Shown here: positions 9,040-62,942 of the stretch, one piece after another | Layout: the number at the start of each line of letters is the position of its first letter | Position numbering within the stretch: position 1 is the first letter of the stretch | Assembly: GCA_016716185.1 (NCBI GenBank) | Contig: JADJWV010000003.1 | Location: 23,759 to 87,758 of the forward strand | Direction: 5' to 3' | DNA length: 64,000 nucleotides | DNA from: Saprospiraceae bacterium | Lineage (GTDB): Bacteria > Bacteroidota > Bacteroidia > Chitinophagales > Saprospiraceae | Notes under the pieces: generated by a model | Databases searched by the model: none | Told to the model about the DNA's origin: nothing | The model's input: only the letters and a program-made list of their open reading frames with translations | Position numbers and translations under genes: made by a program

Positions 9040-9040
9040 A

Positions 9041-45024: not shown

Positions 45025-45030
45025 ATTTAT

Positions 45031-46218: not shown

Positions 46219-46307
46219 CAAATCAAAAGGTCATTAGCCTGAAGCATAAGCCTGTTAAATTTCTGTATCTTCATCCAACTTTAAGTCTCCCTTTTATCTG
46301 ATTAACC

Positions 46308-49300: not shown

Positions 49301-49571
49301 ATCTGCCTGTGAAACTGGATTAGGCGATTTGCGGGGAAGCGAAGGAGTCTACGGATTGCAACGCGCATTCAGAATTGCAGGTGTCAAACATCTCATTATG
49401 AGTTTGTGGGAGGTTCCGGATGGATCAACAACTCGCTTAATGATGGAATTCACTAAAAATTGGTTATTAGAAAATATGACCATTTCCACTGCATTATATA
49501 CAGCACAAAAATCATTAAGAGAAATGGGGTTTGACCCTTATCAATGGGCGGGTTTTGTGCTCGTGGAATAA
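46308..49571 (+). CDS. Exported TPR-repeat protein with C-terminal CHAT (caspase-fold) protease domain
   Basis: Signal peptide MKYISVFTFLLISAGIAFSQ and ~12 TPR_12-like units (LNNLALLYKKTAQFEKA etc.). The C-terminal domain has His in FLGTHGYF (49062-49064) and Cys in LSACETG (49308-49310). Confidence 0.8.
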   Translation: MKYISVFTFLLISAGIAFSQSNDSLLRIQFNLMIKASLKSMNVARYEEAHALTNSAEKLVLDSMTLPSPLLGNCCFNRARIYRRKKDFDSAEIWFIKSKESWENTLGKYHPLYLNSIYQLGLMYREMHQYKKAVDAFLDLKQNLNESVSRKDSSYLECLNSLGLCYLDLEKFSKAELILTEAYDNLYDSSGRIHPLASNTLNNLALLYKKTAQFEKAVSSLKEVLKIREKSIGKRNLIYTISLGNLASLYKEIGNYENAEDYYLEAFNLRREIFGENHVYTLGSLENIAGLYREMGNKDKAIELYKQVNEGRKRLLGKMHSVYGIGLNHLANTYNEINKPNEAMLLYKELLNLRAHNLPTYQKEYVETMNKLTGIYLKLDSFDLAMGMNNFALLYCDSVFGRSNALYANSLSQRGLLEKQLGHCDEAQQHFLEASKIYKDIFGQDHYKYAESIEDLASLHLDLGNYKEAEPLFIESAKIKKQVLGRKHNLYIASLDQLGEFYELQKKYRSSDPLFREISDRDQEQLNMATGFLTERELESFTQSFIERSDKLGSYVILRSQQPNEQGYLSTYVLNNNLFYKGFLLTSAKQLNKQASITEEALKLNSELKNLRRLLGRSYISPLANSEEIKNLEERANQLEKELRKMISGYTEANESIRWQQIQQVLSEQEAALEFIHFKDISDTINHSIQYAAIIIKAGSKEPQFIPLFKESALISLLPSNSEFQSSIITNLYSSHRGSSKSLTKKKPDLYELIWQPLDSVLNDVKTIYYSPTGVLHRLNLNAIPVKAKTILADQFELINVNSTRQLAASTQIYSTNSTALLYGGIDYNQSIDQPSGPIQGQPVIENISVFQQNTDSGDEEAFSFLPGTEEEVDSICKTMQLAGLKVDIKKGQEATESYFKSICQDHSESPRVIFLGTHGYFFQSSANQNEIAKTTASKDSEPVFKTSSDPMFRSGLILAGGNVSWRGKQMEPGQDDGILTAYEISQLNLSNTELVVLSACETGLGDLRGSEGVYGLQRAFRIAGVKHLIMSLWEVPDGSTTRLMMEFTKNWLLENMTISTALYTAQKSLREMGFDPYQWAGFVLVE

Positions 49572-49596
49572 TTTCCAACAAAGGTCATCGAATGAA

Positions 49597-50352: not shown

Positions 50353-50796
50353 TTAATTTTGTTTTTCCATAGTTTTATTCACAGAATGCTTTTTAACAGT
50401 AGGCTTACGAGGTATAAATTCGATTAATGCATCGTCATCAATCTTTTCATACTTAACCGTAATTTTTGTTGCTCCCGGTCTGCAAATATCGACCTTTTTC
50501 ACATCAGTGAGCTCTTTGCCTTGAGCGCATACCTGAATCATATCAGGAGATTTTTTAGCGTCAGCAGGAACAGAAACAGCATATTTCACACAACCTTTTC
50601 TTACGATCAGATCAACACAATCTGTTTCTTTTGTCACTTCTCCTCTCTTGCCACTAGGAGTCACTTTTGAATAATCTGCATCAGCAACCGGGGCTGTTGA
50701 TTTTGTTGGAGCATTCTGGGCCGCCAAATTGCTGGAAATAGTCAATACAAACAGAAATGCAAAAAAACTTAAACTTTTACTTAAAATAGTTTTCAT
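50353..50796 (-). CDS. Small exported four-Cys protein, unknown function
   Basis: Signal peptide MKTILSKSLSFFAFLFVLTISSNLAAQ. Lys-rich, with 4 Cys. It lies 110 nt downstream of the C14-TPR gene and is followed by a terminator. Confidence 0.55.
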   Translation of the reverse strand: MKTILSKSLSFFAFLFVLTISSNLAAQNAPTKSTAPVADADYSKVTPSGKRGEVTKETDCVDLIVRKGCVKYAVSVPADAKKSPDMIQVCAQGKELTDVKKVDICRPGATKITVKYEKIDDDALIEFIPRKPTVKKHSVNKTMEKQN

Positions 50797-50906
50797 AAAA
50801 TAATTTTTTTTTAAATGATTGAAATAAAATTTATCGTTTAGTTATATAAATGTATAAAAAATACGTGTTGGTTATCAGTTCAGAACCTAATTAAATTAAA
50901 AATACA

Positions 50907-53045
50907 TCATTTTTTTTGTTCTGAACTGAAATATTTGGCCATAAGTGAATTCCACTTAGTAGAATCTGCTTTTAATGGTTCCAGGCTTTGATCTTCCGAA
51001 AGATGTTTGTAATCATTCCACCCGTTCTGTATGGCTGCTTCCAGATATCTGAATGCCAGGTCAGATTGGTTTTCACCTGCGTAAAAACAGGCTAGATTGT
51101 AATTAAAATAAGGTCCATAAGGATCAAGTTCGTAAGCCCTTTTAAATGCCTCTTCGGCAGCTTTTTTATCCTGCTGCAGATAATGGACAAACCCAAGATT
51201 GGAATGGGCCATTGGATATTCAGCATCCATCGCAATGGCTTTCAGATAATGAGTCTTCGCAAGTTCTAACTGATTTGAATATAAATAAACATTACCTAAT
51301 AAATTGTGTGCTGACATATGATTTGAATCCATAGCAATGGTCTGCATTAAATAATATTCTGCTTTTTTGAAATCACCCAAGACATCGTAAAAAATCGCAT
51401 TGGAATACGTGGCAACCATCGTTGTTGAATCTATGGCATTGATTTTATCGAGATAATACTTCGCTTTTTCTTTATTTCTAAATTTATCTGCAAACATAAA
51501 CACGAGGTTTGCATAGGGAAGCTGCCAGGACGGGTTCAGGGCTATGGCCTTTTCCGTAAAATATTCAGCAGAATCCATTTGCATGAGATTAAACCCGTAG
51601 GCAAAATTCATCGCCCAATAGATGTGCGGCATATCGGACTGATATTTCAAAGATTCATACAATTTGTCCAGAGCTTTCCTGCCAATTTCTTCGTTTTTGT
51701 TTTTATTTTCAAGGTGTAACAAATAGGCTTCAAAAAAGTACTTCCTGGCCTTCAGGATCGGATACATGTAATGATTCTGGCCAAGCAATTCCCAAGCGCG
51801 TTCGAGATAAGAAGGATACACTGAGTATTTTTCAATAGCTGTTCTTTTGGACAAACTGAGTTCTACCAATTCAGACCGCAGGAATCTGTTTAAAACCTGT
51901 TGGGCATCATCTTGTAATGCGGCGGCATAATTTCTTTTCATTGAATTCAACAAACTTCCAAGGGTGGTGTCTTTTTCCAGGATTTTGTAATAATAGTCTG
52001 CACAATCAGATGCCGGTGCAAAAAAAGATTTTTGTGTAAGACATTCCTTAAATCTGTAGTACTTCAATTTTACAAGCGAATCCACCTTGGAAAGGATTTC
52101 GTCTTCCAGTCCTCTGCTTTCAGTTTTTACAAATGCTACAATTTGACCTTCTTTGCTTTTTTTCAATTGAGCCAAAACGCTTTTGTCAACGATACCTATT
52201 TGTTCGGTTTTATTTCCGATAATGACAGGTATCTGACTTTGCGGAGCTACTTCCTCAATCACATGATCTTCCAGGTAACGGTTTATTTCGTGCAAAGAAA
52301 TGATGGCATCTGAATTTTTATCGGCAAGTCCCATCAATCCATCCACCAGATGATAACTAAATACCCCACGGCCCCCACCCCATTGCTCTCCCTCCAGGGA
52401 AAATTCATTTGGCTGACAGGATAGTATTTTTATTTCGTTTGAATATTGTCTGGCCAGATTAGCTGCAGTAGCCTGAGTACCTCCTATTTGATTGCCTGAT
52501 AATTTACCGGAGTGACATGCATCAGCCACCATCACTACTTTGGATTTGTTTTGAGTGGATAGCGTGTTGATGATTTCTTCAAGATAGGCTAAGCCAAAAG
52601 CGCCTCCAGACATATATACCCGGCCGGGAGCATCCCAACACAAGAGAAAACCTGGTTGTGAAACCGTTTTGCGTTCGACATCGCCGTGCCCTGAAAAATA
52701 TATAATTGCACGGTCACCTTCTTTGCATACTTCCAGCAACCAATCCAACGCAGAAGCAAACTGACCCAAAGTAGCGTTTGAGTTCAACAGGATTTTCAGG
52801 TGATCTTCATCAAGGCCGCCACCTGCCGGGGTCTTTAAGTATGCTGCAAAAGCATTTGCGTCTTTGTCGGCATATTTTAAATCGGGGATGGAAGGGTCCT
52901 GATAATCGGAAATCCCAACAACAATTGCATAAGTTTTATTAGTGGCTTGTGCCCCACTTGAAGGAATAGCCCCAACACCTTTTGTTTGTGAAAACGAAAG
53001 ATTGATCCCCGATATGAATAAAACTAAAATAATAAATTTCCCCAC
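50907..53045 (-). CDS. Exported caspase-like (peptidase C14) domain fused to C-terminal TPR repeats
   Basis: Signal peptide. YAIVVGISDYQD, His in IIYFSGHGD (52686-52688) and Cys in VADACHSG (52515-52517). The C-terminal half is TPR-like (AEYYLMQTIAMDSNH, AKTHYLKAIAMDAEY, AEEAFKRAYELDP). Confidence 0.8.
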   Translation of the reverse strand: MGKFIILVLFISGINLSFSQTKGVGAIPSSGAQATNKTYAIVVGISDYQDPSIPDLKYADKDANAFAAYLKTPAGGGLDEDHLKILLNSNATLGQFASALDWLLEVCKEGDRAIIYFSGHGDVERKTVSQPGFLLCWDAPGRVYMSGGAFGLAYLEEIINTLSTQNKSKVVMVADACHSGKLSGNQIGGTQATAANLARQYSNEIKILSCQPNEFSLEGEQWGGGRGVFSYHLVDGLMGLADKNSDAIISLHEINRYLEDHVIEEVAPQSQIPVIIGNKTEQIGIVDKSVLAQLKKSKEGQIVAFVKTESRGLEDEILSKVDSLVKLKYYRFKECLTQKSFFAPASDCADYYYKILEKDTTLGSLLNSMKRNYAAALQDDAQQVLNRFLRSELVELSLSKRTAIEKYSVYPSYLERAWELLGQNHYMYPILKARKYFFEAYLLHLENKNKNEEIGRKALDKLYESLKYQSDMPHIYWAMNFAYGFNLMQMDSAEYFTEKAIALNPSWQLPYANLVFMFADKFRNKEKAKYYLDKINAIDSTTMVATYSNAIFYDVLGDFKKAEYYLMQTIAMDSNHMSAHNLLGNVYLYSNQLELAKTHYLKAIAMDAEYPMAHSNLGFVHYLQQDKKAAEEAFKRAYELDPYGPYFNYNLACFYAGENQSDLAFRYLEAAIQNGWNDYKHLSEDQSLEPLKADSTKWNSLMAKYFSSEQKK

Positions 53046-53668
53046 TAAAATCTATTGATTTTTGAAAACTTGAAACTTTGTCTTATTTGCTAAGGCCTCA
53101 GGCTAAGGGTAAAAAGGTTTTAAGATATAAAGGCCAGATGCAATTTTTTATGCAATCCACTATTTACGTTTCATTCCCTTAATCTGCATTCTTCCTCTCA
53201 AAACCATCCATGAACCGATTTATATCTTCTACGATCCATCATCCACCGATCTTCAACTATTCTCTGGAAAGAATGAGCCTTTTGCATTGAAACGTTTAAT
53301 CTCCGCAATCGTTATTGCAATTCTGGTTTTTGGACCATCTGTTGGATGGTATACCAGATTATCTCAATTTAGACTCAAATTTAACTTTAAAATTGAATTT
53401 ATTGTTGTATTTGTATCGAAATATTCCAACTTCACTCCTGTTACATAAATTCAGAATAGAAAAAATTCTAATTTGAACTTATAAAAACGATCAACATCCT
53501 TTATAAAATTCCCTAAAGGGTATTTAAAATCAGATTTCTCTTAGCAATCAAATTTTAGAACATTTCGTATGGAATAATCTTGAATATTGAAGTAAAAGCC
53601 AAAAGAAATATTATTAAAAAATTAATTTTTCAAAACGTATTATTTTTACTTAAGGCAAGATCCTAAAA

Positions 53669-54595
53669 TCAATACTGAGACTCTAATTGCAGCTTGAGTA
53701 AGGATTCATAATAAGACTGAACATAATCAGTTAATTGCACATTCTCTGGATTTTTAGAGCATTTTTGCCAACCATAAAACATGGCATAATTCACAAAACC
53801 CAATTCTTCCAGAGATTTCATGATGAAAACGGTACGAGGTAAATCTTGCAATTCCGTTTGAGAATGGATAATTTGTTGTTCCAATTCATCGATCAGAACC
53901 TGATATGCCCCAGGTTCTGACAATCTAAAAGTCGATGCATTAACATCGGCAGTAGTACCGGCCACTCTGACTGTCCAATAATATTCGTTTCCAGGCTGCA
54001 ATCTTTCAAGGTAATTATCCAAAGAATATTCTTTATTCCTGGTACTGGTGGAATAGATTTTAGATCTGGTATCAAGAGCGTATAGATCAAATTCATAAGT
54101 ACAAGTATCACAAAAATGTGTCCATTTGAAAGGAAGAGCAGATGTTTCAGATGGCACAACACCTGAAAAAGGAAAATTCAGAATGGCTAATGTTGCATCT
54201 CCTCTGGAAATGGCATGAACAGTATTTTTATAACTATCTTTGGATTCAGAAGAATGCTTGGCTTCTAGAAAAGACTTAATAAATCCTCCCAATTTATTTA
54301 AAAAAGAACTTTCAGATGTTCTTAAAAAATTCAAAGCACCAATATTGTATATACCTGCTTGAGTGACCTCGCATTGTTCGCCGGATTGCTTGATGAATCG
54401 CACTTTGGAATTTTTGCTCAGTATTAATTTTTGGTTGGAAGAAACAGGACCAAAACTCAATGCCCTGGAATGTGATTCGTTTTCACCCTGATTGCAGATG
54501 CGTACCTGCCCTTCTATGTGAACAGCCATGATATCCTGACCACAGCACATCGCTGTAAAACACATGAAAATACCGACAATCCAGAATAAGCGCAT
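53669..54595 (-). CDS. Exported hypothetical protein, last gene of the caspase/ECF/CHASE2 cluster (possible FecR-like N-terminal region)
   Basis: Signal or lipoprotein-like N-terminus MRLFWIVGIFMCFTAMCCGQ. The N-terminal VHIEGQVRI ... QKLILSKNSKVRFI pattern is reminiscent of FecR-type sensors, but this is a weak call. Confidence 0.45.
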   Translation of the reverse strand: MRLFWIVGIFMCFTAMCCGQDIMAVHIEGQVRICNQGENESHSRALSFGPVSSNQKLILSKNSKVRFIKQSGEQCEVTQAGIYNIGALNFLRTSESSFLNKLGGFIKSFLEAKHSSESKDSYKNTVHAISRGDATLAILNFPFSGVVPSETSALPFKWTHFCDTCTYEFDLYALDTRSKIYSTSTRNKEYSLDNYLERLQPGNEYYWTVRVAGTTADVNASTFRLSEPGAYQVLIDELEQQIIHSQTELQDLPRTVFIMKSLEELGFVNYAMFYGWQKCSKNPENVQLTDYVQSYYESLLKLQLESQY

Positions 54596-54687
54596 ATAAG
54601 ATCTGTTTATTTAGAGTCCTTATTTAGTTATTTGGTTATCAGGGTAGCTCAAAGTTATGATAAAAAGTGCGGATTAGCTAATTCTAC

Positions 54688-55956
54688 TCAGCTTTTTGAA
54701 ATGAGCCGGTTTCGACGAGTCCAAAGCCCAATTTCATCGAGAAAAACCTGGACTTTAGCTTTGAGCTTTAACTCATAGATCTCGTAAAATTCAAACGAAA
54801 GAATGACGCAAGTGGCTAGGAAAGTAAATCCAAGTTTTATGTTAAGATTAATCAAAAGGAAAATACAAGTGGCAAGAATGATAAAAAATTCAATAACCTG
54901 AAGAAAACGAATATAGGGCAAAGACCGGAAAAAATTAAAATGATGCAGGGTTTTAAAAAGAAAAAAATTAAATAGAAATAACATTATCGCCAGATAATAA
55001 ATCGTTGACTCCGGAATATCCCTGATGTAATCGCCATCCAGAATCATAGAAATAATATTGGCATGCACAATAACTCCATACATGTCCGGATGGGATCTTC
55101 CTGTATACTGTTCGTTCAGAGGAGTGTAATGCCTGTCTTTCATAGAATAAGCATTTTCATCCTCGCCACAAAATCCAATCAAGACTATTTTATTTGCGAG
55201 CTGTTCCTTTTCATACTGAGCTGTATCGGATAAAAACTGGTCCATTTCTATCAGATCGTAATGAATTACCTGAGAAGAATTGATGGGATATTGCATGTTG
55301 ACCGCTCCAGGCTGAACCCTTTTGAAATTGATCCATTCCAATTGGCTTTTTCTGGCTCTGATTTGACTCGTTAATTCCGGATTAAACAGATCGGCCAGTT
55401 CAACTGCAAATGCATTTCTATCAACGCCCTCCACCTTGTGAAAAGGTTCAAATGCACGCACCGAAAATCCATCGTTTGTTGCAATGTTTACATAGCCCAC
55501 CCGGTTGCCTTGATCAAAGAATGGATGAGGGTAAAATCCAATTTTCGAATCTTCGTGATATCTACCCTCATTAAATGTAAAACCCAATACCGTCTGTTTC
55601 GCGCCCATCAAAGACTTTTGCAACAAACTATCTTCCGGCAATTGGTAAAAGCTATCCAGCAGAATATCAAGCCCTATGGCTTTTGCATCTACCCTGTTCA
55701 AATAATCAAGGGTATGTGCAATTTTTTTCCGATCTGTTTTCCCGGAATTCAGGACGAGAATTCTTCCATCGTAAAATGACGGATCTGTATGATTTCTAAA
55801 TTTCGAAAAAGCAATATCCATGAGGTCGTGCCCTTTAATTGCTTCGCTGAAGGGATCAATAAAGAGCTGATTTACCGGCAGATGGTGAATGATATAGAGC
55901 ACCAATAAACTACCCAGTGAATAGACGCACCCATGTAAAAATGTCTGTACCTTCAA
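54688..55956 (-). CDS. CHASE2-domain membrane sensor without recognisable output domain
   Basis: N-terminal TM, then ILVLNSGKTDRKKIAHTLDYLNRVDAKAIGLDILLD (CHASE2 signature region). Three C-terminal TM helices and only a ~30-aa tail. Confidence 0.7.
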   Translation of the reverse strand: MKVQTFLHGCVYSLGSLLVLYIIHHLPVNQLFIDPFSEAIKGHDLMDIAFSKFRNHTDPSFYDGRILVLNSGKTDRKKIAHTLDYLNRVDAKAIGLDILLDSFYQLPEDSLLQKSLMGAKQTVLGFTFNEGRYHEDSKIGFYPHPFFDQGNRVGYVNIATNDGFSVRAFEPFHKVEGVDRNAFAVELADLFNPELTSQIRARKSQLEWINFKRVQPGAVNMQYPINSSQVIHYDLIEMDQFLSDTAQYEKEQLANKIVLIGFCGEDENAYSMKDRHYTPLNEQYTGRSHPDMYGVIVHANIISMILDGDYIRDIPESTIYYLAIMLFLFNFFLFKTLHHFNFFRSLPYIRFLQVIEFFIILATCIFLLINLNIKLGFTFLATCVILSFEFYEIYELKLKAKVQVFLDEIGLWTRRNRLISKS

Positions 55957-55965
55957 AACTTGGAC

Positions 55966-57540
55966 TTAGTTGTATGTTTTTATTTCAACCCCCAGCCATG
56001 GTTTCCTGGCTTTACTTTGCAAATATAAGTAACCAGAAGCTTCACATTCTACAAAAATACCCCGATAAGTATCCATCCATTTAAGTTGACTCGATGACTG
56101 GTAACTATTATGGCGATATATGGGATGATCGGAGTCTATTGAATTCCAACGAACCGATAAAAAAATCTCGCCACCACTAGAAAAGTCAGAGAATACTTTC
56201 AGACTTTTATCATGATAAATATTTAAAGTAATTTTATCACTCCCAAAATCCAACTGTAGCGTATCGGAGTTTACGACAACAGATTTACCGCCGGGGGCCG
56301 GTTCCCTGGAAATTTTCCATCCTTCACAAATGACAGAAGACTCCGGGACCATTTTCAGAGCACTGCGATCTCCTTTTACAATTTTCAAATTGTGTTTTGC
56401 AAACATCGAAAGTTTTTCATTTTTGGATTTTAAAACTTCCTGAAAAAATAATTCTGCTTTAACATCAGACAACAGTCCGTTTGCGATTCCCAGCAATAAT
56501 GCCATGGAAGGATTTTTTTGAAATTCGTTTTTTGATTTGATTAAAGCATTCATGTAAGTTAAGGCCTGCGGAGCTTCGCCGGATAACAACATGCAGCTGA
56601 TAAAATTGAAATAGGCCAAACTGTAATCGCTATTCAGGGTAATGGCCATCGTAAAATTTGTTTTGGCCATATTCAAATTATTCCTTCTCGCCAATCTCAT
56701 TTCCTGAGTTAAAGGTCCTCTGGCTTTTTTAAACTTTTTCAATCCGGTATTAAAATCAGGTTCCAGTAAATAAGCAAAGTAGTCTGAGTCCTCATCAAAT
56801 ATTTCCAATGCTTTCAATGCGTATACCCATCCCAAATTGTTATAAATCTCAGCTCCTTTATACACATCCAGAATTCTCTCGTAACATGCGGCTGCCAAAT
56901 CATAATATCCCTTAAGTGTAAGCACGTTTGCAACTTCAAAAAGCTGAAGAAACCCCAGCATTTTATGAACTAAAAATTTACTGCTATTGATGCGTTCAGA
57001 TTTTGAGGGATACTTCTCGTTTTCGGTTTCTGAAATTTGGTAAGATCCATAAATCTGTTTTAATAAGTGGCCCAGGATCTTCTCGGGATTATATCCTGCC
57101 AGAAAACTCAGAAATAATCCGTTGATGTCAGAAGTTAATTCATTCCCAAGTTTGGTCGTTTCAGATTTATGTGATTGAACGAAATAAGAAGGCAGCTGGG
57201 TGGTATCCCGGTCAAACATAGCATGGCTCAGTTCATGCGCAAGCACAAATGATAGTGCATCTGATGAATCTTCCTTGAACGATCTGCAAATATTCAAGAT
57301 CTCTTTTTCAATCTGAATTTCATGTTTGAGCGGTACGTATCTGGCAGCAAACACCTTTCCGGCTACAACTGCAATTCCGGGTTTAGGAATGCGCTTATTG
57401 GACAATGTCCCGTATAATTTATCCAAAACACTTTGGGACCAGGCATGTGGTTGGTTCTGTGCATTCAACCCTCCAGCTTCCCATGGCCACTGAAATATAG
57501 CCAAACATATAAAAACTCTGAAAATCGATTTCAGGTTCAT
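55966..57540 (-). CDS. Exported HExxH (putative zinc metallopeptidase-like) protein with TPR-like region
   Basis: Signal peptide. FVLAHELSHAMF, with HELSH at 57223-57237. The middle is helical-repeat (YYDLAAACYERILDVY, YSLAYFNFISCMLLSGEAPQAL). The C-terminal ~150 aa are beta-rich. Confidence 0.6.
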   Translation of the reverse strand: MNLKSIFRVFICLAIFQWPWEAGGLNAQNQPHAWSQSVLDKLYGTLSNKRIPKPGIAVVAGKVFAARYVPLKHEIQIEKEILNICRSFKEDSSDALSFVLAHELSHAMFDRDTTQLPSYFVQSHKSETTKLGNELTSDINGLFLSFLAGYNPEKILGHLLKQIYGSYQISETENEKYPSKSERINSSKFLVHKMLGFLQLFEVANVLTLKGYYDLAAACYERILDVYKGAEIYNNLGWVYALKALEIFDEDSDYFAYLLEPDFNTGLKKFKKARGPLTQEMRLARRNNLNMAKTNFTMAITLNSDYSLAYFNFISCMLLSGEAPQALTYMNALIKSKNEFQKNPSMALLLGIANGLLSDVKAELFFQEVLKSKNEKLSMFAKHNLKIVKGDRSALKMVPESSVICEGWKISREPAPGGKSVVVNSDTLQLDFGSDKITLNIYHDKSLKVFSDFSSGGEIFLSVRWNSIDSDHPIYRHNSYQSSSQLKWMDTYRGIFVECEASGYLYLQSKARKPWLGVEIKTYN

Positions 57541-57546
57541 GGGTAT

Positions 57547-58377
57547 TTATTTCATTTTATCAACCAGCACTTGTGCTTGCTGTGAAAAAGTAGATTCTTT
57601 GTCTTCGCTAACCCTTTTTAGCAAGGATTTCCATTCTGAGGTTTCATTTGAGGTTTTCATCAAGGCCAGAGCAAGATACCAACAGGAGGCGCTTTGAAGC
57701 TGTTGATTTTTAATTTCGCAGAGCGGTCTCAAAAGTGGTATGGCTTTTTCAGTTTCAGAAAGTGCCAGGTAATTCAATGCCTGATAATAGCTGCAAAGAT
57801 TGCCTATACCCTCTTCAAGGCTGCATCGACTGAAAAATTCAAGAGAAAGGCGATAGTTGCCATCCAAATAATTTTGTAAAGCCCATTGTATAGAATCCGC
57901 CGGCACACTGGAAGGGATGAATCCGGATGGATCGAGTTGTGAAATCACTAATTTGGTTGTCGATTCATCTGCATGGTAATATTCTGCAAACCACTGATCC
58001 CGTATATTTGAATTGCTGTTGAAAAACTTGATGAGAAATAAGGATGTTACAGTCAGGAATACGGTAGCCGCAATAGCATAGATTTTATTTGTTTTGATGA
58101 ATTGTATGATGCCTGGTTTTGAAATTGGCACATGCTGCTTAAAAAAATTCTGGTTTTCCAGTTCTATATCCACTTTAGATATTAAATTTTTCAGTTGCAT
58201 ATCTCCCCAGTGTTCTATTCCATTCATAATATTGCGGTAATTTTGAAGTTCTTGTGCTAATGCGACATCCTTTTGAATTCTGTTTTCAAAATCAGATTTT
58301 TCCACTGCTTCCATTTCCCCATTCAGGTAACGGATAATTTCTTCCTGCAGATCAAAATTTTCTATAGACGGTTCCAT
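57547..58377 (-). CDS. Putative anti-sigma factor (single-pass membrane protein with periplasmic TPR-like domain)
   Basis: Start overlaps the sigma-gene stop by 1 nt. The N-terminal ~60 aa are helical and cytoplasmic, followed by TM IYAIAATVFLTVTSLFLIKFF and a C-terminal helical-repeat domain. Confidence 0.6.
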   Translation of the reverse strand: MEPSIENFDLQEEIIRYLNGEMEAVEKSDFENRIQKDVALAQELQNYRNIMNGIEHWGDMQLKNLISKVDIELENQNFFKQHVPISKPGIIQFIKTNKIYAIAATVFLTVTSLFLIKFFNSNSNIRDQWFAEYYHADESTTKLVISQLDPSGFIPSSVPADSIQWALQNYLDGNYRLSLEFFSRCSLEEGIGNLCSYYQALNYLALSETEKAIPLLRPLCEIKNQQLQSASCWYLALALMKTSNETSEWKSLLKRVSEDKESTFSQQAQVLVDKMK

Positions 58378-58943
58378 TAAAAGGCGTTTTTAAGGTGGCG
58401 GTAATCAGGCGAATCCACGATGAGTTTTTTCAAACCCTGGAGGCATCTGTGTTTTTTTACTTTAATAAATTGTTCCGTATAACCCATTATGCTGGCCAAT
58501 TCAGAATTTGATTTCTTTTGATAAAATCCCTGATAAATGATCTGTTGGCATTCTTTTGAAATTTCTGAAAGCTTACCCGAGATCAATTCAAACAAGGTAT
58601 TTTTTTCTTCCGCTTGACTGGTTTCATCTTCCCTTTCATTGAAAATGACATCATCATATGAAACGGTGTGCTTTTCTTTGTGCACTTTTTTCAACCATAA
58701 ATTTCTTGCCATTCCCATAAGATAATACTTTTCATTTTGTATGGTTTCAAGTGTGCCGCTTTGCAGTATTTTTAAAAAATTCAAAGCAATCTCCTGAAAC
58801 AGATCCCTTGCATCCTCAGCTTGCCCACTGTTATTGCACACATATTGCAAGACATCCAAATAATACAGTTTGTACAATTCTTTAATCTTTGCTTCTATGA
58901 CTTCGGGGCCTGTTATCATTTCGTTATATATTGCTTTTTGCAC
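58377..58943 (-). CDS. ECF-type sigma-70 family factor (GTG start)
   Basis: Region 2-like DARDLFQEIALNFLK ... YLMGMARNLWLKK and region 4 HTH SNSELASIMGYTEQFIKVKKHRCLQGLKKL. Confidence 0.75.
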   Translation of the reverse strand: MQKAIYNEMITGPEVIEAKIKELYKLYYLDVLQYVCNNSGQAEDARDLFQEIALNFLKILQSGTLETIQNEKYYLMGMARNLWLKKVHKEKHTVSYDDVIFNEREDETSQAEEKNTLFELISGKLSEISKECQQIIYQGFYQKKSNSELASIMGYTEQFIKVKKHRCLQGLKKLIVDSPDYRHLKNAF

Positions 58944-59029
58944 GCTGGTGAATTTTAATTTTTTAAAAAATGCTTATTTATTCATATATCAAAATGCAAA
59001 ATATACCTTGTTTCTTGAAAATAATAAAA

Positions 59030-60580
59030 TTATTCACCCATTCTGTAGGCCAGGCCAAAATAGATACCGGTATCAAATTTCTTTTCAACAGGCAGGATTC
59101 CATCACCAATTATTACTGAATCTCCAACTTTCAATCCATTGGTCAATCGTTCAACTTTTGAGAACATGAATCCACCACTCAGCATGATTGTCTGCTTTCT
59201 ACCCAGATACAAACCGGGTCCGAAGAAGAATGCCAAGCCTTCAGTGCTCTCTGCGCTGGATAAAGGCAAGCCCATGCCAAAAGAAAGTGCAGGAGTCACC
59301 GCACCACCGGTAGTATAACTCAAATTGAAAAACGAACTCAACATCGGAGCATATCTGTCCTCATCTACCGCAGTGATCACATTGTCTTTTACAAAAAACC
59401 GCTGAGGTGTATTGCCATATCGGATTCCATTTACTCCAAATGAAGTACCCAGTTTGAATTCGCCATAGGTATCGACTTTTAATTTTATAGTTTTTACCGG
59501 TTTAAGTTCAGTCTCGTTCTCTACATTAAGGTCCGTACTGTCTTTTCTAAAAAGTTTTAAACTGTAAACCAGGTAACGACCTTCTGCAGTTGAGTTATGC
59601 GTATAAGCAAAATCATTATTCAGCAAGTCCATATACTTGACGAAATAAGTTTGAATATAAGGTGCATAATCATTGCTGGTTTGATTGCTTTCTCCGGCCA
59701 AATTTTCAGCTCCAAGACTGACTTCTAATCGCTGGACCAGGCTTTTTATCTGCGGTACATCGGTTTCATATTTTTGAAGAAGACCATATAAATCATCGAT
59801 ACCGTGATCGACCGATTTAAGTTTGGTTACAATTCTGCCAAGGTCTGAAATTTTTCCAACATAATTTTCCAGCCTTTTTCTGGCCAATTCGCGCAATGAA
59901 GGGATCTCTAACAAACGTTCGTTAAGTTGTTCGACATCTTTAACCTCAAATTTCTGCCCCTGCTCCAGAATAAATGCATCTTCAAAAACATCCATCACCA
60001 ATTCTTTAACCAGTGAAGGTGCCAACGAGGGTGTTTTACACAATTCGTTGATATAGTTAATATTGCCTTTTAAAGTCCGGGCTGCTTTTTCCCTTTTGTT
60101 GATATCTGTGATGAGCGTATTCATCGCTTCTGTTTCCAGCGCCAATTCATCGAGTTTTTCTTTAAACTCAACGACATCCTCCATGTCTCCTCTCGCATTT
60201 CCATCCGGATTGGCACCGGATACCGCTCCAAGCATTTTTCCAAAAATCGGCACATTCATAAAAGGCAACCCACCGCCTGGAAAAAAACTGTTCAGCAATT
60301 GCGGCATGAATCCGCGGAAACTACCGTTGTCGCTTCCATATTCGGCAGGCATCAACGCGTGATTAGTTGCATCGAATAAGGCTGAATAAATGTAATTGTT
60401 GAATTCAACCAGGTGAAAATGGACTTGCCGGTCTTTTCTGATTTTTAGTTCTTTGACCTGTTTTCCATCCTTCATATACCACAGACTGTCGTTATGGACG
60501 TCGTAATAAATATGCAAGTCCTGTGCCTGCAAAAAGTTGCAACTTAAAAATGCAAGTGCAATAAAAATGTGCTTGAACAT
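59030..60580 (-). CDS. Exported hypothetical protein: central coiled coil and C-terminal beta-barrel-like region
   Basis: Signal peptide MFKHIFIALAFLSCNFLQAQ. Heptad-rich middle. The last ~170 aa show alternating hydrophobic beta-strand patterns ending in YFGLAYRMGE. The start lies 1 nt after the caspase gene stop. Confidence 0.55.
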   Translation of the reverse strand: MFKHIFIALAFLSCNFLQAQDLHIYYDVHNDSLWYMKDGKQVKELKIRKDRQVHFHLVEFNNYIYSALFDATNHALMPAEYGSDNGSFRGFMPQLLNSFFPGGGLPFMNVPIFGKMLGAVSGANPDGNARGDMEDVVEFKEKLDELALETEAMNTLITDINKREKAARTLKGNINYINELCKTPSLAPSLVKELVMDVFEDAFILEQGQKFEVKDVEQLNERLLEIPSLRELARKRLENYVGKISDLGRIVTKLKSVDHGIDDLYGLLQKYETDVPQIKSLVQRLEVSLGAENLAGESNQTSNDYAPYIQTYFVKYMDLLNNDFAYTHNSTAEGRYLVYSLKLFRKDSTDLNVENETELKPVKTIKLKVDTYGEFKLGTSFGVNGIRYGNTPQRFFVKDNVITAVDEDRYAPMLSSFFNLSYTTGGAVTPALSFGMGLPLSSAESTEGLAFFFGPGLYLGRKQTIMLSGGFMFSKVERLTNGLKVGDSVIIGDGILPVEKKFDTGIYFGLAYRMGE

Positions 60581-60581
60581 A

Positions 60582-62609
60582 CTATTGATTTTCTGTAATG
60601 ATAAATGTGTCTGAATAAATATTGATATCTCCGGAAGGAAGGCTTAGTGCTTTCCCTCCCCGGGTTTGATATATTTCTTCGTCTTTGGTTTCCATGAAAA
60701 GTTTTTCAAACGGGCTTGTTTGTTTGAATCCTCTGGTACCCAAAGTTGATCTTAAATCAATCGGCTTGGTCGAGGCAATCAATTTGAACATTTCCTGTCC
60801 ATAGGGCGCCCCGATTTCAAAAGTCTGAGACATCAGGAGTTTCTGACCGGGCAGGATTCTCAATTCTTCTGGTTCAACAACATCGTTAGGGCCGGGAATC
60901 AATGGATTGATCAAATTGTCAGGTTGCAGATCAATCATATTAAAATAAGCAGGCTTGATTCCCTCGTTTTGAACCAAAATCCTGATCAGAGAACCCACTT
61001 TTAATTTCTTTGCCCCATCCTCACCAAAATTTAATGCAGGCAATTCATCAACGCTCATCCCTTCGCGAATACTATCTACAGGTACGATCTTAAAAGTAAC
61101 TTTAATCTCAGCCGCTTCCATCTCCATTTTTTTCATAAACTGTCCCTGAAGATATTGTCTCAATTTCTTGACCAATTTATTTCTGAAGATCACCGGTGTT
61201 TTCAAATCAGATGCGATGATGACACTATCGATGGGATAGCCATCGCTGGTGATGATTCTGAGCATTGCGCCAGGTTTAGTCTCTGGATATTCGAACCAGA
61301 TTTTTGCACCTTGCTGGTCGTGTTTGATGAACGGTTTATCAAGCAACCAGGATTTTAAATCCATTTCCAAATCCGATAAACCCATTTTGAATCCAATCGG
61401 AATAGTCAAATCGCCAAAACTTTGTTCGAGTACATAAACCCAAGCCAATTCTGATAAATTTTTTCCAAGGGCGCTGTCCAATGTAATTGTGGATTGCGTA
61501 GCAAAAGCTTTCGTCAGAGTTCCGGTAACCATTGGTGTTGCACTCAGGTAATCGCGGGTATCTGCAGGAAACAATCCTACGATTGCGCCTTTATTCAAAC
61601 CATGAAGCTGTCCGCCGTTGATGGTAATTTCATGGTCAGAAAGCACTTTAAGCACTCTAAAATAGCTGGCTTTCCCCAACATTTTTCCGTTGAAAACGTC
61701 CATATCGAGTTCGCCTTCTACCTGCGGTTGCTGCAAAGGTGCGATACGGCTCATTTCATTGCGAATTTTATCGAATAAAGCCCGGTAAGAACTTCCTTCT
61801 TTAACCTTGAAAATGGATTGTGTCAACGCATAGGATAACGAACCAAAACTTTGGCCTGCTTCATCTGTCATCTCGTAGTTTAATTGGTTTTGTGCAGAAC
61901 CAAAGAAAGAAACCATCGGTGCCAATGGTTTAACTCCTTCTCCTCCTCTTGATTTTGGTTTGATTTCGTTATTTTCTTTTGCTAATAATTTTTTGCCATT
62001 GTTTTTTAAGTAGTCCGGACTTGCCATAATGTCTGTGGTCCCTCTCGCTTGTGAAAAACCTCTGGTCCCTGTTCCTGAATGACAAGCATCCAGCACAACC
62101 AGAACATGGCCTGTCGGACCTACTTTTTCACGCAGATTCTCCATGGCCTGGCCAAGTTCTTCATCGCGGATAAGTTTTTCTCCTTCATTGACACCAGACT
62201 GGAATTTCTTAGGTGAATCGTAGGGTACGATGCACTCATCCAGGCCGTCAATTTCGTCACCATTTTGATCTGCAGCCTGCTGACCATGACCAGAGAATTG
62301 AAAATAGATGATATCACCCGGTCTTACCTTGTTGTAAAAATCCTGTGTAATGGTTTTGAGTATATTTTGTTTGTTGGCTTGTTCATCAGAAAGGATTAAT
62401 ATATTTTCCTTTTTGAATCCCTGATCCAGTAATGTCTTGGTAACCAAATCAATATCGTTCATTGAACTTAATGAATTCCAGCCTCCAGCTTCAGGATATT
62501 TGCCCACCCCGATCAACAAAGCCTTTTTGCGGTCTGCCTGTCCATAAGCCTGAGCCATCCAAAACAAGCCGGCCAATGATAAACATAAGATTTTGAAGCA
62601 GTTGTTCAT
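60582..62609 (-). CDS. Exported caspase-like (peptidase C14) protease with ~450-aa C-terminal extension
   Basis: Signal peptide. KKALLIGVGKYP, His108 in YFQFSGHGQ (62286-62288) and Cys176 in VLDACHSGTG (62082-62084). Confidence 0.8.
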   Translation of the reverse strand: MNNCFKILCLSLAGLFWMAQAYGQADRKKALLIGVGKYPEAGGWNSLSSMNDIDLVTKTLLDQGFKKENILILSDEQANKQNILKTITQDFYNKVRPGDIIYFQFSGHGQQAADQNGDEIDGLDECIVPYDSPKKFQSGVNEGEKLIRDEELGQAMENLREKVGPTGHVLVVLDACHSGTGTRGFSQARGTTDIMASPDYLKNNGKKLLAKENNEIKPKSRGGEGVKPLAPMVSFFGSAQNQLNYEMTDEAGQSFGSLSYALTQSIFKVKEGSSYRALFDKIRNEMSRIAPLQQPQVEGELDMDVFNGKMLGKASYFRVLKVLSDHEITINGGQLHGLNKGAIVGLFPADTRDYLSATPMVTGTLTKAFATQSTITLDSALGKNLSELAWVYVLEQSFGDLTIPIGFKMGLSDLEMDLKSWLLDKPFIKHDQQGAKIWFEYPETKPGAMLRIITSDGYPIDSVIIASDLKTPVIFRNKLVKKLRQYLQGQFMKKMEMEAAEIKVTFKIVPVDSIREGMSVDELPALNFGEDGAKKLKVGSLIRILVQNEGIKPAYFNMIDLQPDNLINPLIPGPNDVVEPEELRILPGQKLLMSQTFEIGAPYGQEMFKLIASTKPIDLRSTLGTRGFKQTSPFEKLFMETKDEEIYQTRGGKALSLPSGDINIYSDTFIITENQ

Positions 62610-62942
62610 GAGTCAAATATATATTAAAAGGTGAATTTGCCTTTCTGAATGATAGTTACTAGAATTCAAAAACGTTATCAGAATGCCTGATTAAACTTTT
62701 GGCTAAATTGAGGATAAGTAAAGGTACAAATGATCTCTATAATTTATAAATTGGGAGGATGCTTGATGAAAGCAATTCTGAAGCCAGGCGCTTGAAGCTC
62801 AAAGCCGAAAGCTCGAAGCTTTAAGAAGTGTCTCATAGCAAGGTCTAATTCACTTTAAAAACTTCAGCTCTTTTTCGGATATTTCCCCAAAATGTTTGAA
62901 GTTACTCATCCGATTTTCAAAAAATCAAAATATCAATCCACC

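What the first reader, a model, noticed from the sequence alone, without database searches (positions are those of the whole stretch)
53669..62609. Seven-gene cluster joining an exported caspase-like protease to an ECF sigma/anti-sigma pair, an HExxH-TPR protein and an output-less CHASE2 sensor
**Seen.** Seven minus-strand ORFs are packed with gaps of 1, 86, -1 (overlap), 6, 9 and 92 nt, in this order:
- C14 caspase-like, 675 aa, with dyad H108/C176
- a 516-aa coiled-coil protein with a barrel-like C-terminus
- an ECF sigma factor
- a single-pass anti-sigma-like protein
- an exported HELSH + TPR protein
- a CHASE2 membrane protein
- an exported 308-aa protein

Every member except the sigma factor has a signal peptide or TM segment.

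**Established.** C14/CHAT proteases act as effectors or maturases in bacterial conflict and programmed-death systems. ECF sigma activity is normally released by regulated proteolysis of the anti-sigma factor. CHASE2 is an extracytoplasmic sensor module normally fused to cyclase, kinase or caspase outputs.

**Inference.** This looks like an envelope-located proteolytic signalling or conflict module. The caspase-like and/or HExxH protease could act on the anti-sigma factor, or on an envelope target, under the control of a CHASE2-sensed cue. I do not know of a described system with this composition.
Basis: partly seen in the sequence, partly recalled or inferred. Interest (0 to 1): 0.85.

Follow-up and report, generated by a model that had tools for sequence, protein, structure and literature searches.

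The report
Sigma-factor-controlled envelope protease and sensor cluster
A conserved gene cluster in Saprospiraceae bacteria puts an alternative sigma factor, its membrane inhibitor and a zinc protease in charge of a set of exported caspase-like proteases, a new outer-membrane protein and an orphan CHASE2 sensor pair; the set has not been described before and its function is unknown.

Summary

**What I found**
- **Synteny.** The same gene order recurs in about 15 Saprospiraceae genome and metagenome loci. The 516-aa protein is only 36-62% identical across the genome loci.
- **Predicted regulon.** A promoter-like motif, TGATAAC-N16/17-(T/A)AC, occurs three times in the 64-kb window. The sites lie upstream of the caspase operon, the 308-aa gene and a small exported protein gene at 50353-50796. 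The motif sits at the same places in the orthologous loci. It is about 11-fold rarer in related loci that lack the sigma factor.
- **Protein identities.**
  - The HExxH-TPR protein is a divergent M48 peptidase with the BepA domain layout.
  - The 516-aa protein is predicted to carry a C-terminal outer-membrane beta-barrel.
  - The 308-aa protein resembles MtxA, which is also encoded next to a CHASE2 gene.
- **Modularity.**
  - A 308-aa-family gene follows the output-less CHASE2 gene in 56 of 62 metagenome loci.
  - The caspase, barrel, M48 and CHASE2 families co-occur in many loci without any sigma factor.
  - The sigma/anti-sigma/M48 trio is a clade-specific regulatory add-on.

Two more exported clan-CD peptidases lie nearby.

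**Verdict.** This is an undescribed variant of ECF cell-envelope signalling. Its biochemical output is unknown.

The parts
62647..62680 (-). ECF-type promoter candidate P(casp): TGATAAC-N15-TAACT, about 40 nt upstream of the caspase start codon
   Evidence: The same motif lies 36-68 nt upstream of the caspase gene in all 10 orthologous genome loci. It is one of only 3 bipartite matches in the 64-kb window.
60582..62609 (-). Exported C14 caspase-like peptidase (675 aa) with a DUF4384-like C-terminal domain; catalytic dyad H108/C176
   Evidence: Pfam PF00656 72.7 bits; DUF4384 24.7 bits, below its cutoff. Dyad at 108/176, with both motifs kept in all 22 orthologues. Signal peptide with Gln at the predicted cleavage site.
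59030..60580 (-). 516-aa exported protein: N-terminal beta-sandwich, helical region and predicted C-terminal outer-membrane beta-barrel. It starts 1 nt after the caspase stop codon.
   Evidence: AF2 model with pLDDT 78.8. Only weak Foldseek hits to OmpA, OpcA, OmpW and FadL barrels. The family is restricted to Saprospirales. The caspase gene lies directly upstream in 25 of 60 loci.
58377..58943 (-). ECF (group 4) sigma factor, 188 aa
   Evidence: TIGR02937 52.4 bits, above the 42.9 cutoff. Sigma70_r2 and r4 hits are sub-threshold. The stop codon overlaps the anti-sigma start codon by 1 nt.
57547..58377 (-). Single-pass anti-sigma-like protein (276 aa): cytoplasmic N-terminal helix motif, TM at 101-119, periplasmic TPR-like domain with a largely conserved Cys pair
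   Evidence: Alignment A5. One of 10 members hits zf-HC2, and there are TPR/ANAPC3 hits. Weak BamD-like TPR matches. Hydropathy.
55966..57540 (-). Exported M48-like zinc peptidase + TPR (524 aa), with the BepA domain layout; H102-E103-xx-H106, E134, D138
   Evidence: These residues are invariant in 21 family members. 19 of 21 members hit Pfam Peptidase_M48, best 2.3e-7. The family profile hits PDB M48 entry 3c37 (4.8e-5) and BepA (2.3e-3). All 47 family ORFs keep HExxH. This paralogue clade occurs only next to the anti-sigma gene.
54688..55956 (-). Output-less CHASE2 membrane protein (422 aa, TTG start)
   Evidence: PF05226 84.2 bits. Hydrophobic segments at 5-23, 316-334 and 351-369, then a short tail. 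Relatives are ORFs of 360-480 aa.
54608..54641 (-). ECF-type promoter candidate P(308), in the 92-nt CHASE2-P308 spacer
   Evidence: The motif lies upstream of the 308-aa orthologue in 9 genome loci and 4 further metagenome loci.
53669..54595 (-). Exported 308-aa MtxA-like protein: N-terminal beta domain, flexible linker, FN3-like domain (F156, W158, Y205, W207), C-terminal TPR-like helices
   Evidence: AF2 model with pLDDT 72.9. The best PDB fold match is the MtxA C-terminal domain 4z29, E 2.9e-5. The gene directly follows CHASE2 in 21 of 21 genome loci and 56 of 62 metagenome loci. A Bernardetia homologue also sits next to a CHASE2 gene.
50907..53045 (-).
   Evidence: PF00656 60.9 bits plus TPR families. 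SGHG at 118 and CHSG at 177. Homologues lie downstream of the cluster in L001, L003, L007 and L012.
50844..50877 (-). ECF-type promoter candidate P(147)
   Evidence: TGATAAC-N16-TAC. It is the only exact match to TGATAAC-N16-18-TAC in the window. Analogous sites precede small exported protein genes in L001, L003, L008, L010, L011, L013 and L019.
50353..50796 (-). Small exported Cys-containing protein (147 aa), predicted regulon member
   Evidence: Signal peptide with Gln at the predicted cleavage site. It is homologous to the motif-preceded small proteins of L019 (E 2e-5).
46308..49571 (+). Exported TPR-CHAT protein (1087 aa), a possible accessory member
   Evidence: CHAT 177 bits and TPR_12 203 bits. 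Signal peptide with Gln at the predicted cleavage site. CHAT ORFs occur near the cluster in L001, L021, L065, L084 and L116.

Best explanation
The locus is an autoregulated ECF sigma unit that controls a Saprospirales-specific envelope module.

**Shown**
- A sigma/anti-sigma/M48-TPR trio sits inside a conserved set of exported proteins.
- A promoter-like motif, TGATAAC-N16/17-(T/A)AC, marks three transcription units:
  - caspase, barrel, sigma, anti-sigma, M48 and probably CHASE2;
  - the MtxA-like 308-aa gene;
  - a small exported protein gene.

**Inferred**
1. The single-pass anti-sigma factor holds the sigma factor at the inner membrane.
2. An envelope cue inactivates the anti-sigma factor. 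The most likely agent is the co-translated periplasmic M48-TPR protease, and the neighbouring CHASE2/MtxA-like pair may gate it.
3. The freed sigma factor transcribes its own operon (positive feedback) and the other two units.
4. The products form two pairs:
   - a periplasmic caspase-like protease partnered with a novel outer-membrane barrel protein (adjacent genes, 1-nt gap);
   - an inner-membrane CHASE2 protein partnered with its MtxA-like periplasmic protein.
5. The final output is extracytoplasmic proteolysis of a target that is still unknown.
For: - **Synteny.** Gene order is kept at 36-62% identity of the 516-aa protein in L001, L003, L007, L008, L010, L011, L013 and L052. L012 and L019 show variants. 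Six further metagenome loci also carry the sigma factor next to the module.
- **Translational coupling.** The gaps are 1, -1, 6 and 9 nt.
- **Promoter motif.**
  - It lies upstream of the caspase gene in 10 of 10 orthologous loci.
  - It lies upstream of the 308-aa gene in 9 genome loci and 4 metagenome loci.
  - It lies upstream of small exported protein genes in 7 loci.
  - It is always on the strand of the downstream gene at these conserved sites.
  - The three window matches are all in this cluster.
  - Its density is 4.4 per 100 kb in sigma-bearing loci and 0.41 per 100 kb in sigma-less paralogous loci.
  - It ends in AAC and has 16-17-nt spacing, as ECF -35 elements typically do (my own knowledge).
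- **M48 link to the anti-sigma factor.** The M48 catalytic residues are invariant. The M48-A clade is found only next to the anti-sigma gene, including in L032, where the trio lies apart from the caspase-barrel pair.
- **Caspase activity.** Both catalytic dyad motifs are kept in all 22 orthologues.
- **Export.** All structural members have Sec signal peptides. Pfam and NCBIfam found no T9SS C-terminal domain in any of them, so a periplasmic or outer-membrane location is likely.
Against: - No transcript, binding or cleavage data exist. The motif could bind another regulator.
- The window's own P(casp) and P(308) -10 elements deviate from the consensus (TAACT and GACT).
- CHASE2 is separated from the M48 gene by an inserted CNNM-family gene or a longer gap in some orthologues. 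CHASE2 is absent from L019.
- The anti-sigma assignment rests on position, topology and a weak zf-HC2 hit in 1 of 10 members.
- The barrel fold has only weak PDB matches.
- The substrate and the physiological role are unknown.
- Deleting mtxA in Magnetospirillum gave no phenotype (PMC4439547).
Confidence: 0.55

Rival explanations
1. The exported caspase and/or the HExxH protease are the input: on a cue sensed by CHASE2 they cleave the anti-sigma factor, and the ECF regulon lies elsewhere.
For: - The M48-TPR gene abuts or overlaps the anti-sigma gene in every sigma-bearing locus, and that paralogue clade occurs nowhere else.
- The gene order anti-sigma, M48, CHASE2, 308-aa fits a sensor-protease-substrate chain.
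- Proteases are known to free ECF sigma factors. Examples are Csx29 acting on Csx30 with RpoE (bioRxiv 10.1101/2022.08.17.504292) and regulated proteolysis of anti-sigma factors (PMC8999054).
Against: - The caspase, barrel, M48, CHASE2 and 308-aa families co-occur in dozens of loci that have no sigma or anti-sigma gene. Their primary substrates therefore cannot be the anti-sigma factor.
- The conserved promoter motif places the caspase operon and the 308-aa gene inside the regulon.
- No evidence links the caspase specifically to the anti-sigma factor.
Confidence: 0.3
2. The locus is an envelope quality-control or surface-maturation module. The BepA-like M48-TPR protease and the TPR proteins would assist or police assembly of the 516-aa barrel protein. 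The caspase-barrel pair would act as an outer-membrane-tethered processing protease, as the clan-CD peptidase PorU does with the PorV barrel. The ECF pair would respond to assembly stress.
For: - The family profile matches M48 and BepA, and the domain layout (M48 then TPR) is the same.
- The anti-sigma periplasmic domain gives weak BamD-like TPR matches.
- The 516-aa barrel gene is tightly paired with a caspase gene (1-nt gap, 25 loci) or with an M48-TPR gene.
- The PorU/PorV analogy comes from my own knowledge.
Against: - This does not explain the near-obligate CHASE2/MtxA-like pair.
- It does not explain why several paralogous modules exist per lineage.
- The BepA match is weak (E 2.3e-3), and the window protein alone is below the Pfam M48 cutoff.
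- No BAM or T9SS genes are adjacent.
Confidence: 0.2
3. The locus is an envelope-level conflict or anti-phage system, or a programmed-death system. Exported caspase-like effectors would be triggered by an attack on the cell surface and transcriptionally amplified by the ECF sigma factor.
For: - Caspase and CHAT proteases are recurrent effectors in bacterial conflict systems, and some neighbour ECF sigma factors (PMC8195603).
- An ECF/anti-sigma pair controls a phage-defence island in Myxococcus (PMC11506125).
- Three exported clan-CD peptidases lie within 16 kb.
- The paralogous modules are diverse and shuffled.
Against: - PADLOC matches only its generic caspase model and no known system.
- No NTPase, nucleic-acid sensor, toxin or mobile-element hallmark is present in the cluster.
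- Base composition is not atypical.
- All components are extracytoplasmic, unlike the described caspase-based defence systems.
Confidence: 0.1
4. The genes are neighbours by chance or by shared export only, and they have independent functions and regulation.
For: - Gaps of 86, 92 and 624 nt allow separate transcription.
- An unrelated CNNM-family gene is inserted in L003, L010 and L011.
- Some 516-aa paralogues stand alone.
Against: - Gene order is conserved in about 15 loci down to 36% identity of the 516-aa protein.
- Start and stop codons overlap or nearly abut.
- A shared motif sits at orthologous positions, and the families co-occur in independently seeded locus sets.
Confidence: 0.03

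Closest known systems
ECF sigma/anti-sigma cell-envelope signalling with regulated proteolysis (for example RpoE-RseA, SigW-RsiW/PrsW, FecI-FecR)
   Same: - A small group-4 sigma factor is translationally coupled to a single-pass anti-sigma factor.
- A candidate autoregulatory promoter has an AAC-ending -35 element.
- A protease gene is adjacent.
   Different: - The anti-sigma periplasmic domain is TPR-like, not RseA-like or FecR-like.
- No TonB-dependent transducer is present.
- The candidate site-1 protease is a soluble exported M48-TPR enzyme.
- The predicted regulon is a set of exported caspases, a novel barrel protein and a CHASE2 pair.
MtxA (MGR_0208) with the adjacent CHASE2-adenylate cyclase gene in Magnetospirillum (PMC4439547, PDB 4z29)
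   Same: - The 308-aa protein has the same layout: signal peptide, N-terminal domain, protease-accessible linker, FN3/Ig-like domain at about 142-226, then TPR-like helices.
- It is the best fold match for the model.
- Both genes lie next to a CHASE2 gene.
   Different: - No sequence similarity is detectable.
- The CHASE2 partner here has no cyclase or any other output domain.
- Here the pair is embedded among proteases and an ECF unit.
EACC2-caspase systems with variable C-terminal sensors (including CHASE2), an ECF sigma factor and the DUF1822 TPR protein (Kaur et al. 2021, PMC8195603)
   Same: [quoted passage not shown] A proposed proteolytic step is coupled to a transcriptional response.
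   Different: - In those systems the caspase is fused to EACC2 and to the sensor in one protein.
- Here the caspases have Sec signal peptides and no EACC2 domain, and CHASE2 is a separate output-less protein.
- No DUF1822 hit was found.
- An outer-membrane barrel protein and an M48 protease are added here.
BepA (YfgC), the periplasmic M48-TPR beta-barrel assembly-enhancing protease
   Same: Both are exported, both have HExxH with a downstream Glu, and both have a C-terminal TPR domain. The family profile matches BepA and another M48 structure.
   Different: - The sequence is very divergent; the window protein alone is below the Pfam M48 cutoff.
- It has an extra C-terminal region of about 130 aa.
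- It is encoded with an anti-sigma factor or with CHASE2, not as a housekeeping gene.
Type III-E Craspase (Csx29 TPR-CHAT, Csx30, Csx31, RpoE)
   Same: A clan-CD protease is genetically linked to an ECF-type sigma factor. Some Csx30 C-terminal domains are DUF4384 (bioRxiv 10.1101/2022.08.17.504292).
   Different: - There is no CRISPR or gRAMP component here.
- Craspase is cytoplasmic, whereas these proteases are exported.
- Here DUF4384 is on the protease itself.

Membership tests
Peptidase C14 (caspase/orthocaspase, clan CD) | Profile match above the curated cutoff | tested here: met
   PF00656 scores 72.7 bits (cutoff 21.4) for the 675-aa protein and 60.9 bits for the 712-aa protein.
Peptidase C14 (caspase/orthocaspase, clan CD) | Catalytic His-Cys dyad in the SGHG ... 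DACHSG context | tested here: met
   H108 and C176 are present. Both motifs occur in all 22 full-length orthologues; 21 of 22 passed the order check, and L019 failed only that check.
DUF4384 | Profile match above the curated cutoff | tested here: inconclusive
   24.7 bits against a cutoff of 27, covering 2-81 of the 81 model positions. Orthologues carry 'weak' precomputed hits.
ECF (group 4) sigma factor | Regions 2 and 4 only, about 190 aa, profile match above the cutoff | tested here: met
   TIGR02937 scores 52.4 bits against a cutoff of 42.9, and the protein is 188 aa. The Pfam r2 and r4 hits are each just below their cutoffs.
ECF (group 4) sigma factor | Cognate promoter with -35 and -10 elements, often autoregulatory | tested here: inconclusive
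   A conserved bipartite motif lies upstream of the operon and is specific to sigma-bearing loci. Recognition by this sigma factor is not shown.
Anti-sigma factor (class I/II ASD, single-pass) | N-terminal anti-sigma domain that binds the sigma factor | not testable with these tools
   Only indirect support exists: a 1-nt overlap with the sigma gene, an N-in single TM segment, a conserved IxxYLxGE...E..FE helix, and a zf-HC2 hit in 1 of 10 members at E 0.008.
CHASE2 | Profile match, and a periplasmic domain flanked by one N-terminal and several C-terminal TM helices | tested here: met
   PF05226 scores 84.2 bits over residues 74-328. Hydrophobic segments lie at 5-23, 316-334 and 351-369.
CHASE2 | Cytoplasmic output domain (cyclase, kinase, GGDEF or peptidase) | tested here: not met
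   No further domain was found, and the tail after the last TM helix is about 25 residues. All 79 related metagenome ORFs are 360-480 aa. It is therefore a stand-alone CHASE2 protein.
Peptidase M48 / BepA-like | HExxH plus a downstream Glu ligand; profile match | tested here: inconclusive
   H102, E103, H106, E134 and D138 are invariant. The window protein scores 13.4 bits against a cutoff of 20.3, but 19 of 21 family members hit M48 (best 2.3e-7). The family profile hits PDB 3c37 at 4.8e-5 and BepA at 2.3e-3.
MtxA-like periplasmic partner of CHASE2 | Signal peptide, N-terminal domain, Ig/FN3-like domain and TPR-like domain; gene adjacent to CHASE2 | tested here: met
   AF2 model. Foldseek match to 4z29 at E 2.9e-5 with a TM-score of about 0.5. 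Adjacency holds in 21 of 21 and 56 of 62 loci. The MtxA layout and its CHASE2 neighbour come from PMC4439547.
MtxA-like periplasmic partner of CHASE2 | Detectable sequence homology to MtxA | tested here: not met
   A profile search against PDB sequences did not recover 4z29 at E <= 1.
DUF928 | Profile match above the curated cutoff | tested here: not met
   There are only weak hits in two family members: E 0.02 and E 6e-4, the latter 20 bits against a cutoff of 26.
FecR-type anti-sigma or periplasmic partner | FecR domain (PF04773) | tested here: not met
   No FecR hit was found in the anti-sigma family or the 308-aa family, even at E <= 1.
EACC2-caspase / ECF / DUF1822 systems | EACC2 domain fused N-terminally to the caspase, sensor fused C-terminally, DUF1822 neighbour | tested here: not met
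   The caspases start with signal peptides. CHASE2 is a separate gene. No DUF1822 hit was found. I had no EACC2 model to test.
Known anti-phage defence systems (PADLOC) | Match to system-specific component models | tested here: not met
   Only the generic caspase model matched (8.5e-15 and 3.5e-14). No other component matched convincingly.
Outer-membrane beta-barrel protein | Closed antiparallel barrel resembling solved outer-membrane proteins | tested here: inconclusive
   The model has 11 long strands in 326-515 with pLDDT mostly 80-90. The best Foldseek hits are OmpA, OpcA, OmpW and FadL, but at E >= 2e-3.

The most novel reading that the evidence does not exclude
Stand-alone CHASE2 with its MtxA-like partner may be a signalling device whose output stays outside the cytoplasm. 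It would gate exported proteases (M48-TPR, C14 and CHAT), some tethered to a dedicated outer-membrane barrel, so that bacteria run an extracytoplasmic caspase/metalloprotease cascade. In one Saprospiraceae clade this cascade has been wired to an ECF sigma factor through M48 cleavage of the anti-sigma factor. If true, this would give the first functional context for CHASE2 and MtxA, and a new role for bacterial caspases.
Probability: 0.2. Interest if true: 0.85.

Novelty: new variant of a known kind. Interest (0 to 1): 0.62.

Why it matters
- **Orphan sensor domain.** CHASE2 is a widespread sensor domain with no known ligand or mechanism, and MtxA is a solved structure with no known function. 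This locus places both in a conserved and testable genetic context. The CHASE2 to MtxA-like adjacency holds in 56 of 62 independently sampled loci.
- **Exported caspases.** Bacterial caspase homologues are usually discussed as cytoplasmic death or defence effectors. Here active-site-intact caspases are exported, paired with a dedicated outer-membrane protein, and predicted to be under ECF control.
- **Direct experiment.** The predicted three-promoter regulon can be tested directly: express the sigma factor with promoter reporters, then look for protease substrates.
- **Ecology.** Saprospiraceae are abundant protein-degrading filamentous bacteria in wastewater treatment (my own knowledge), so the module may matter there.

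Tried and rejected
- **Generic promoter and terminator scan.** It showed no enrichment (38 sites found, 39 expected) and does not model Bacteroidota promoters.
- **Spacer between the 516-aa gene and the sigma gene.** It is not conserved in length or sequence (26-115 nt), so I found no internal sigma promoter.
- **Rfam.** There were no hits in 50-64 kb.
- **FecR likeness.** The N-terminal domain of the 308-aa protein looked FecR-like by eye, but Pfam did not support this.
- **DUF928 link.** It is only weak, and there is essentially no DUF928 literature. The cyanobacterial CHAT/CHASE2/DUF928 neighbourhood that I recall from memory could not be verified, so I did not use it.
- **Word-indexed homologue searches.** They under-sampled both orphan families (23 and 28 proteins). 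The exhaustive HMM search gave 3810 hits for the 308-aa family.
- **Plasmid tblastn with CHASE2.** It gave a single hit, which was nonetheless informative.
- **Conserved Arg in the 308-aa linker as a caspase site.** A basic residue is nearby in both subfamilies but not in the same alignment column. This remains only a lead.
- **Small exported proteins.** They form at least two families that are barely related to each other.
- **CHAT proteins.** Single-sequence searches find them near the module in only 5 loci.

Full report

Yes.

Profile searches confirm the main domain calls:
- Peptidase_C14 scores 72.7 bits against a cutoff of 21.4.
- The C-terminal DUF4384 match is just below its cutoff (24.7 against 27).
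- CHASE2 scores 84.2 bits.
- The generic ECF model TIGR02937 scores 52.4 bits against a cutoff of 42.9.

Sequence checks agree. H108 and C176 are in the caspase, HELSH is at residue 102, the anti-sigma-like protein has one TM segment at 101-119, and the CHASE2 protein has several TM segments followed by a short tail.

Each exported member has a basic n-region, a strong h-region and a Gln at the likely signal-peptidase I site. This is the Bacteroidetes Q-rule (PMC5837995). The sigma and anti-sigma proteins lack such N-termini.

PADLOC recognises only a generic caspase model. Rfam finds nothing in 50-64 kb.

**2. What the orphan proteins are**

*The 516-aa protein.*
- It belongs to a small family found only in Saprospiraceae, Lewinellaceae and related MAGs.
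- Its AlphaFold model (pLDDT 78.8) has a small N-terminal beta-sandwich, a disordered linker, a long helical region at 111-320 and a C-terminal beta-barrel at 326-515.
- The barrel gives only weak matches to OmpA, OpcA, OmpW and FadL.

*The HExxH protein.*
- It belongs to a family in which H102, E103, H106, E134 and D138 are invariant.
- 19 of 21 members hit Pfam Peptidase_M48 (best 2.3e-7).
- The family profile hits an M48 structure (3c37, 4.8e-5), BepA (2.3e-3) and many TPR proteins.
- It is therefore an exported, divergent M48-TPR protease with the BepA domain layout.

*The 308-aa protein.*
- It is modelled (pLDDT 72.9) as an N-terminal beta domain, a flexible linker, an FN3-like domain at 145-225 and TPR-like helices at 230-307.
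- Its best PDB fold match is the C-terminal domain of MtxA from Magnetospirillum (4z29, E 2.9e-5).
- MtxA has the same domain order and boundaries. It is exported and is encoded next to a CHASE2-adenylate cyclase gene. Its deletion gave no phenotype (PMC4439547).
- No sequence-level similarity to MtxA is detectable.
- DUF928 similarity is only marginal.

*The anti-sigma-like protein.*
- It has a conserved N-terminal helix motif, one TM segment and a periplasmic TPR-like domain with a largely conserved Cys pair.

**3. Conservation and modularity**

A genome scan seeded with the 516-aa family returned 57 loci, all from Saprospirales-type organisms.
- The full order (caspase, 516-aa, sigma, anti-sigma, M48-TPR, CHASE2, 308-aa) recurs in L001, L003, L007, L008, L010, L011, L013 and L052, at 36-62% identity of the 516-aa protein.
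  - L012 shows a rearranged form and L019 a partial one.
  - L003, L010 and L011 carry an inserted CNNM-family gene.
- In about 40 loci with distant 516-aa paralogues (22-29% identity), the same families recur without any sigma or anti-sigma gene.
  - One typical layout is 308-aa, M48-TPR, 308-aa, CHASE2, divergent from the 516-aa gene.
  - Another is caspase, 516-aa, M48-TPR, caspase-TPR.
- Every one of the 21 CHASE2 genes in these loci is followed by a 308-aa-family gene.

An independent metagenome scan seeded with the CHASE2 profile returned 79 loci.
- A 308-aa-family gene lies directly downstream in 56 of the 62 loci that have enough sequence.
- A caspase is present in 29 loci, an M48-TPR in 22, the 516-aa family in 14 and the sigma factor in 6.

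A Bernardetia (Cytophagales) plasmid carries only the CHASE2 gene and a 308-aa-family gene (hhalign E 6e-8).

An exhaustive HMM search found 3810 relatives of the 308-aa family, so it is far larger than word-indexed searches suggested.

The architecture is therefore nested:
- The broadest core is a stand-alone CHASE2 protein with its MtxA-like partner.
- Exported proteases and the barrel protein often join it.
- One clade adds a sigma/anti-sigma/M48 trio. That trio is always contiguous. Its M48 paralogue clade (scores of 204 or more) is found only there, including in L032, where the trio lies apart from the caspase-barrel pair.

**4. A predicted regulon**

I aligned the regions upstream of the orthologous caspase genes. 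The intergenic sequence is otherwise unalignable, but a conserved TGATAAC appears, followed 16-17 nt later by (T/A)AC.
- **In the window.** The bipartite pattern occurs three times, all on the gene strand and all inside this cluster:
  - at 62680, upstream of the caspase gene;
  - at 54641, in the 92-nt CHASE2 to 308-aa spacer;
- **In the orthologous loci.** It lies upstream of the caspase gene in 10 of 10 loci, upstream of the 308-aa gene in 9 loci, and upstream of small exported protein genes in 7 loci.
- **In new data.** Four further sigma-bearing metagenome loci show it upstream of the 308-aa gene.
- **Specificity.** Its density is 4.4 per 100 kb in sigma-bearing loci and 0.41 per 100 kb in the sigma-less paralogous loci.
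- **Form.** An AAC-ending -35 element with 16-17-nt spacing is what ECF promoters look like (my own knowledge).

The simplest reading is that this is the promoter of the cluster's own sigma factor. The regulon would then be the caspase operon (autoregulated), the MtxA-like gene and a small exported Cys-containing protein. That this sigma factor recognises the motif is an inference and is not shown.

**5. Mechanism**

The shown and inferred steps are separated in the Best explanation section. In short, the anti-sigma factor would hold the sigma factor until an envelope cue removes it. The sigma factor would then amplify its own operon and switch on the module.

The strict genetic coupling of the M48-A paralogue to the anti-sigma factor makes that protease the best candidate for the inactivating step. 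The neighbouring CHASE2/MtxA-like pair is a plausible gate.

The caspase looks like an output rather than an input:
- It is inside the predicted regulon.
- Its gene is separated from the barrel gene by a 1-nt gap.
- Homologous caspase-barrel pairs exist without any sigma factor.

None of the exported proteins has a T9SS C-terminal domain. The proteases therefore probably act in the periplasm or at the outer membrane. What they cleave is unknown.

**6. Comparison with known systems**

The regulatory logic is ordinary ECF signalling. The cargo is not.

The nearest published relatives are:
- the EACC2-caspase(-CHASE2) / ECF / DUF1822 neighbourhoods of Kaur et al. (PMC8195603);
- Craspase, which couples a CHAT protease to an ECF-type sigma factor;
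- the MtxA / CHASE2-cyclase pair;
- periplasmic LysM-FecR proteins encoded next to CHASE2 histidine kinases in Burkholderia (PMC5192318).

None of these has exported caspases, the barrel protein, an M48-TPR protease or a stand-alone CHASE2 protein. The defining fusions of the EACC2 systems are absent here. Literature searches found no description of this cluster.

**7. Verdict**

The feature is real and conserved, and it extends beyond the reported coordinates. I rate it a new variant of a known kind, because the ECF signalling logic is conventional while the module it controls is undescribed.

Interest is moderate to high. The locus offers a testable entry point into CHASE2 and MtxA function and into extracytoplasmic bacterial caspases.

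The limits are that the full sigma-bearing cluster is known only from Saprospiraceae and unclassified metagenome contigs, that no experimental data exist, and that the biochemical output remains unknown.

Noticed in passing
window 46308-49571 (+): A 1087-aa TPR + CHAT protein with a Sec signal peptide and a Gln at the predicted cleavage site. It is the third exported clan-CD peptidase within 16 kb. CHAT ORFs also lie near the module in L001, L021, L065, L084 and L116.
   Followed up: partly
Homologues lie downstream of the orthologous clusters and in many sigma-less modules. No promoter motif lies upstream of it in the window.
   Followed up: partly
window 53046-53668: A 624-nt AT-rich gap with no ORF of 54 aa or more and no Rfam hit. 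In L007 the equivalent interval holds a 1236-aa secreted HEISH metalloprotease-like protein, which suggests a deletion here.
   Followed up: partly
window 58912-58918 (-): A TGATAAC copy lies 25 nt inside the GTG-started sigma ORF and overlaps an in-frame ATG (MITGPEV...). The true sigma start codon may be this ATG.
   Followed up: no
L007 11537-11640 and L052 11540-11653: The spacer between the 516-aa gene and the sigma gene contains inverted repeats (for example CCCATCTGAATTC...GAATTCGGATGGG). These could be an attenuator or partial terminator inside the operon. They are not seen in the window's 86-nt spacer.
   Followed up: no
Proteins P0056, P0067, P0078 and others: The FN3-like domain of the 308-aa protein (F-x-W ... 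Y-x-W) is repeated 10-34 times in giant proteins of 2000-5200 aa. Pfam labels these repeats Ig_Rha78A_N, fn3 or DUF928.
   Followed up: partly
L112, L121, L128 (about 5950-9480): Two tandem output-less CHASE2 genes are followed by a single 308-aa-family gene.
   Followed up: no
L019 14956-17532: Four tandem paralogues of a small exported Cys-containing protein related to the window's 147-aa protein. Two of them are preceded by the promoter motif. A second, barely related family of small proteins plays the same positional role in L001, L003, L008, L010, L011 and L013, and it also sits next to caspase-barrel pairs in the sigma-less loci L015-L018.
   Followed up: partly
window 35647-50235: The flanking genes appear unrelated: DUF2807, DUF7948, an FAD-linked oxidase with an Fe-S domain, a protein with a T9SS C-terminal sorting domain, a Nuo51-like flavoprotein, a thiolase and a beta-carbonic anhydrase. 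An amine-oxidase gene at 62943-63983 runs to the window edge.
   Followed up: partly
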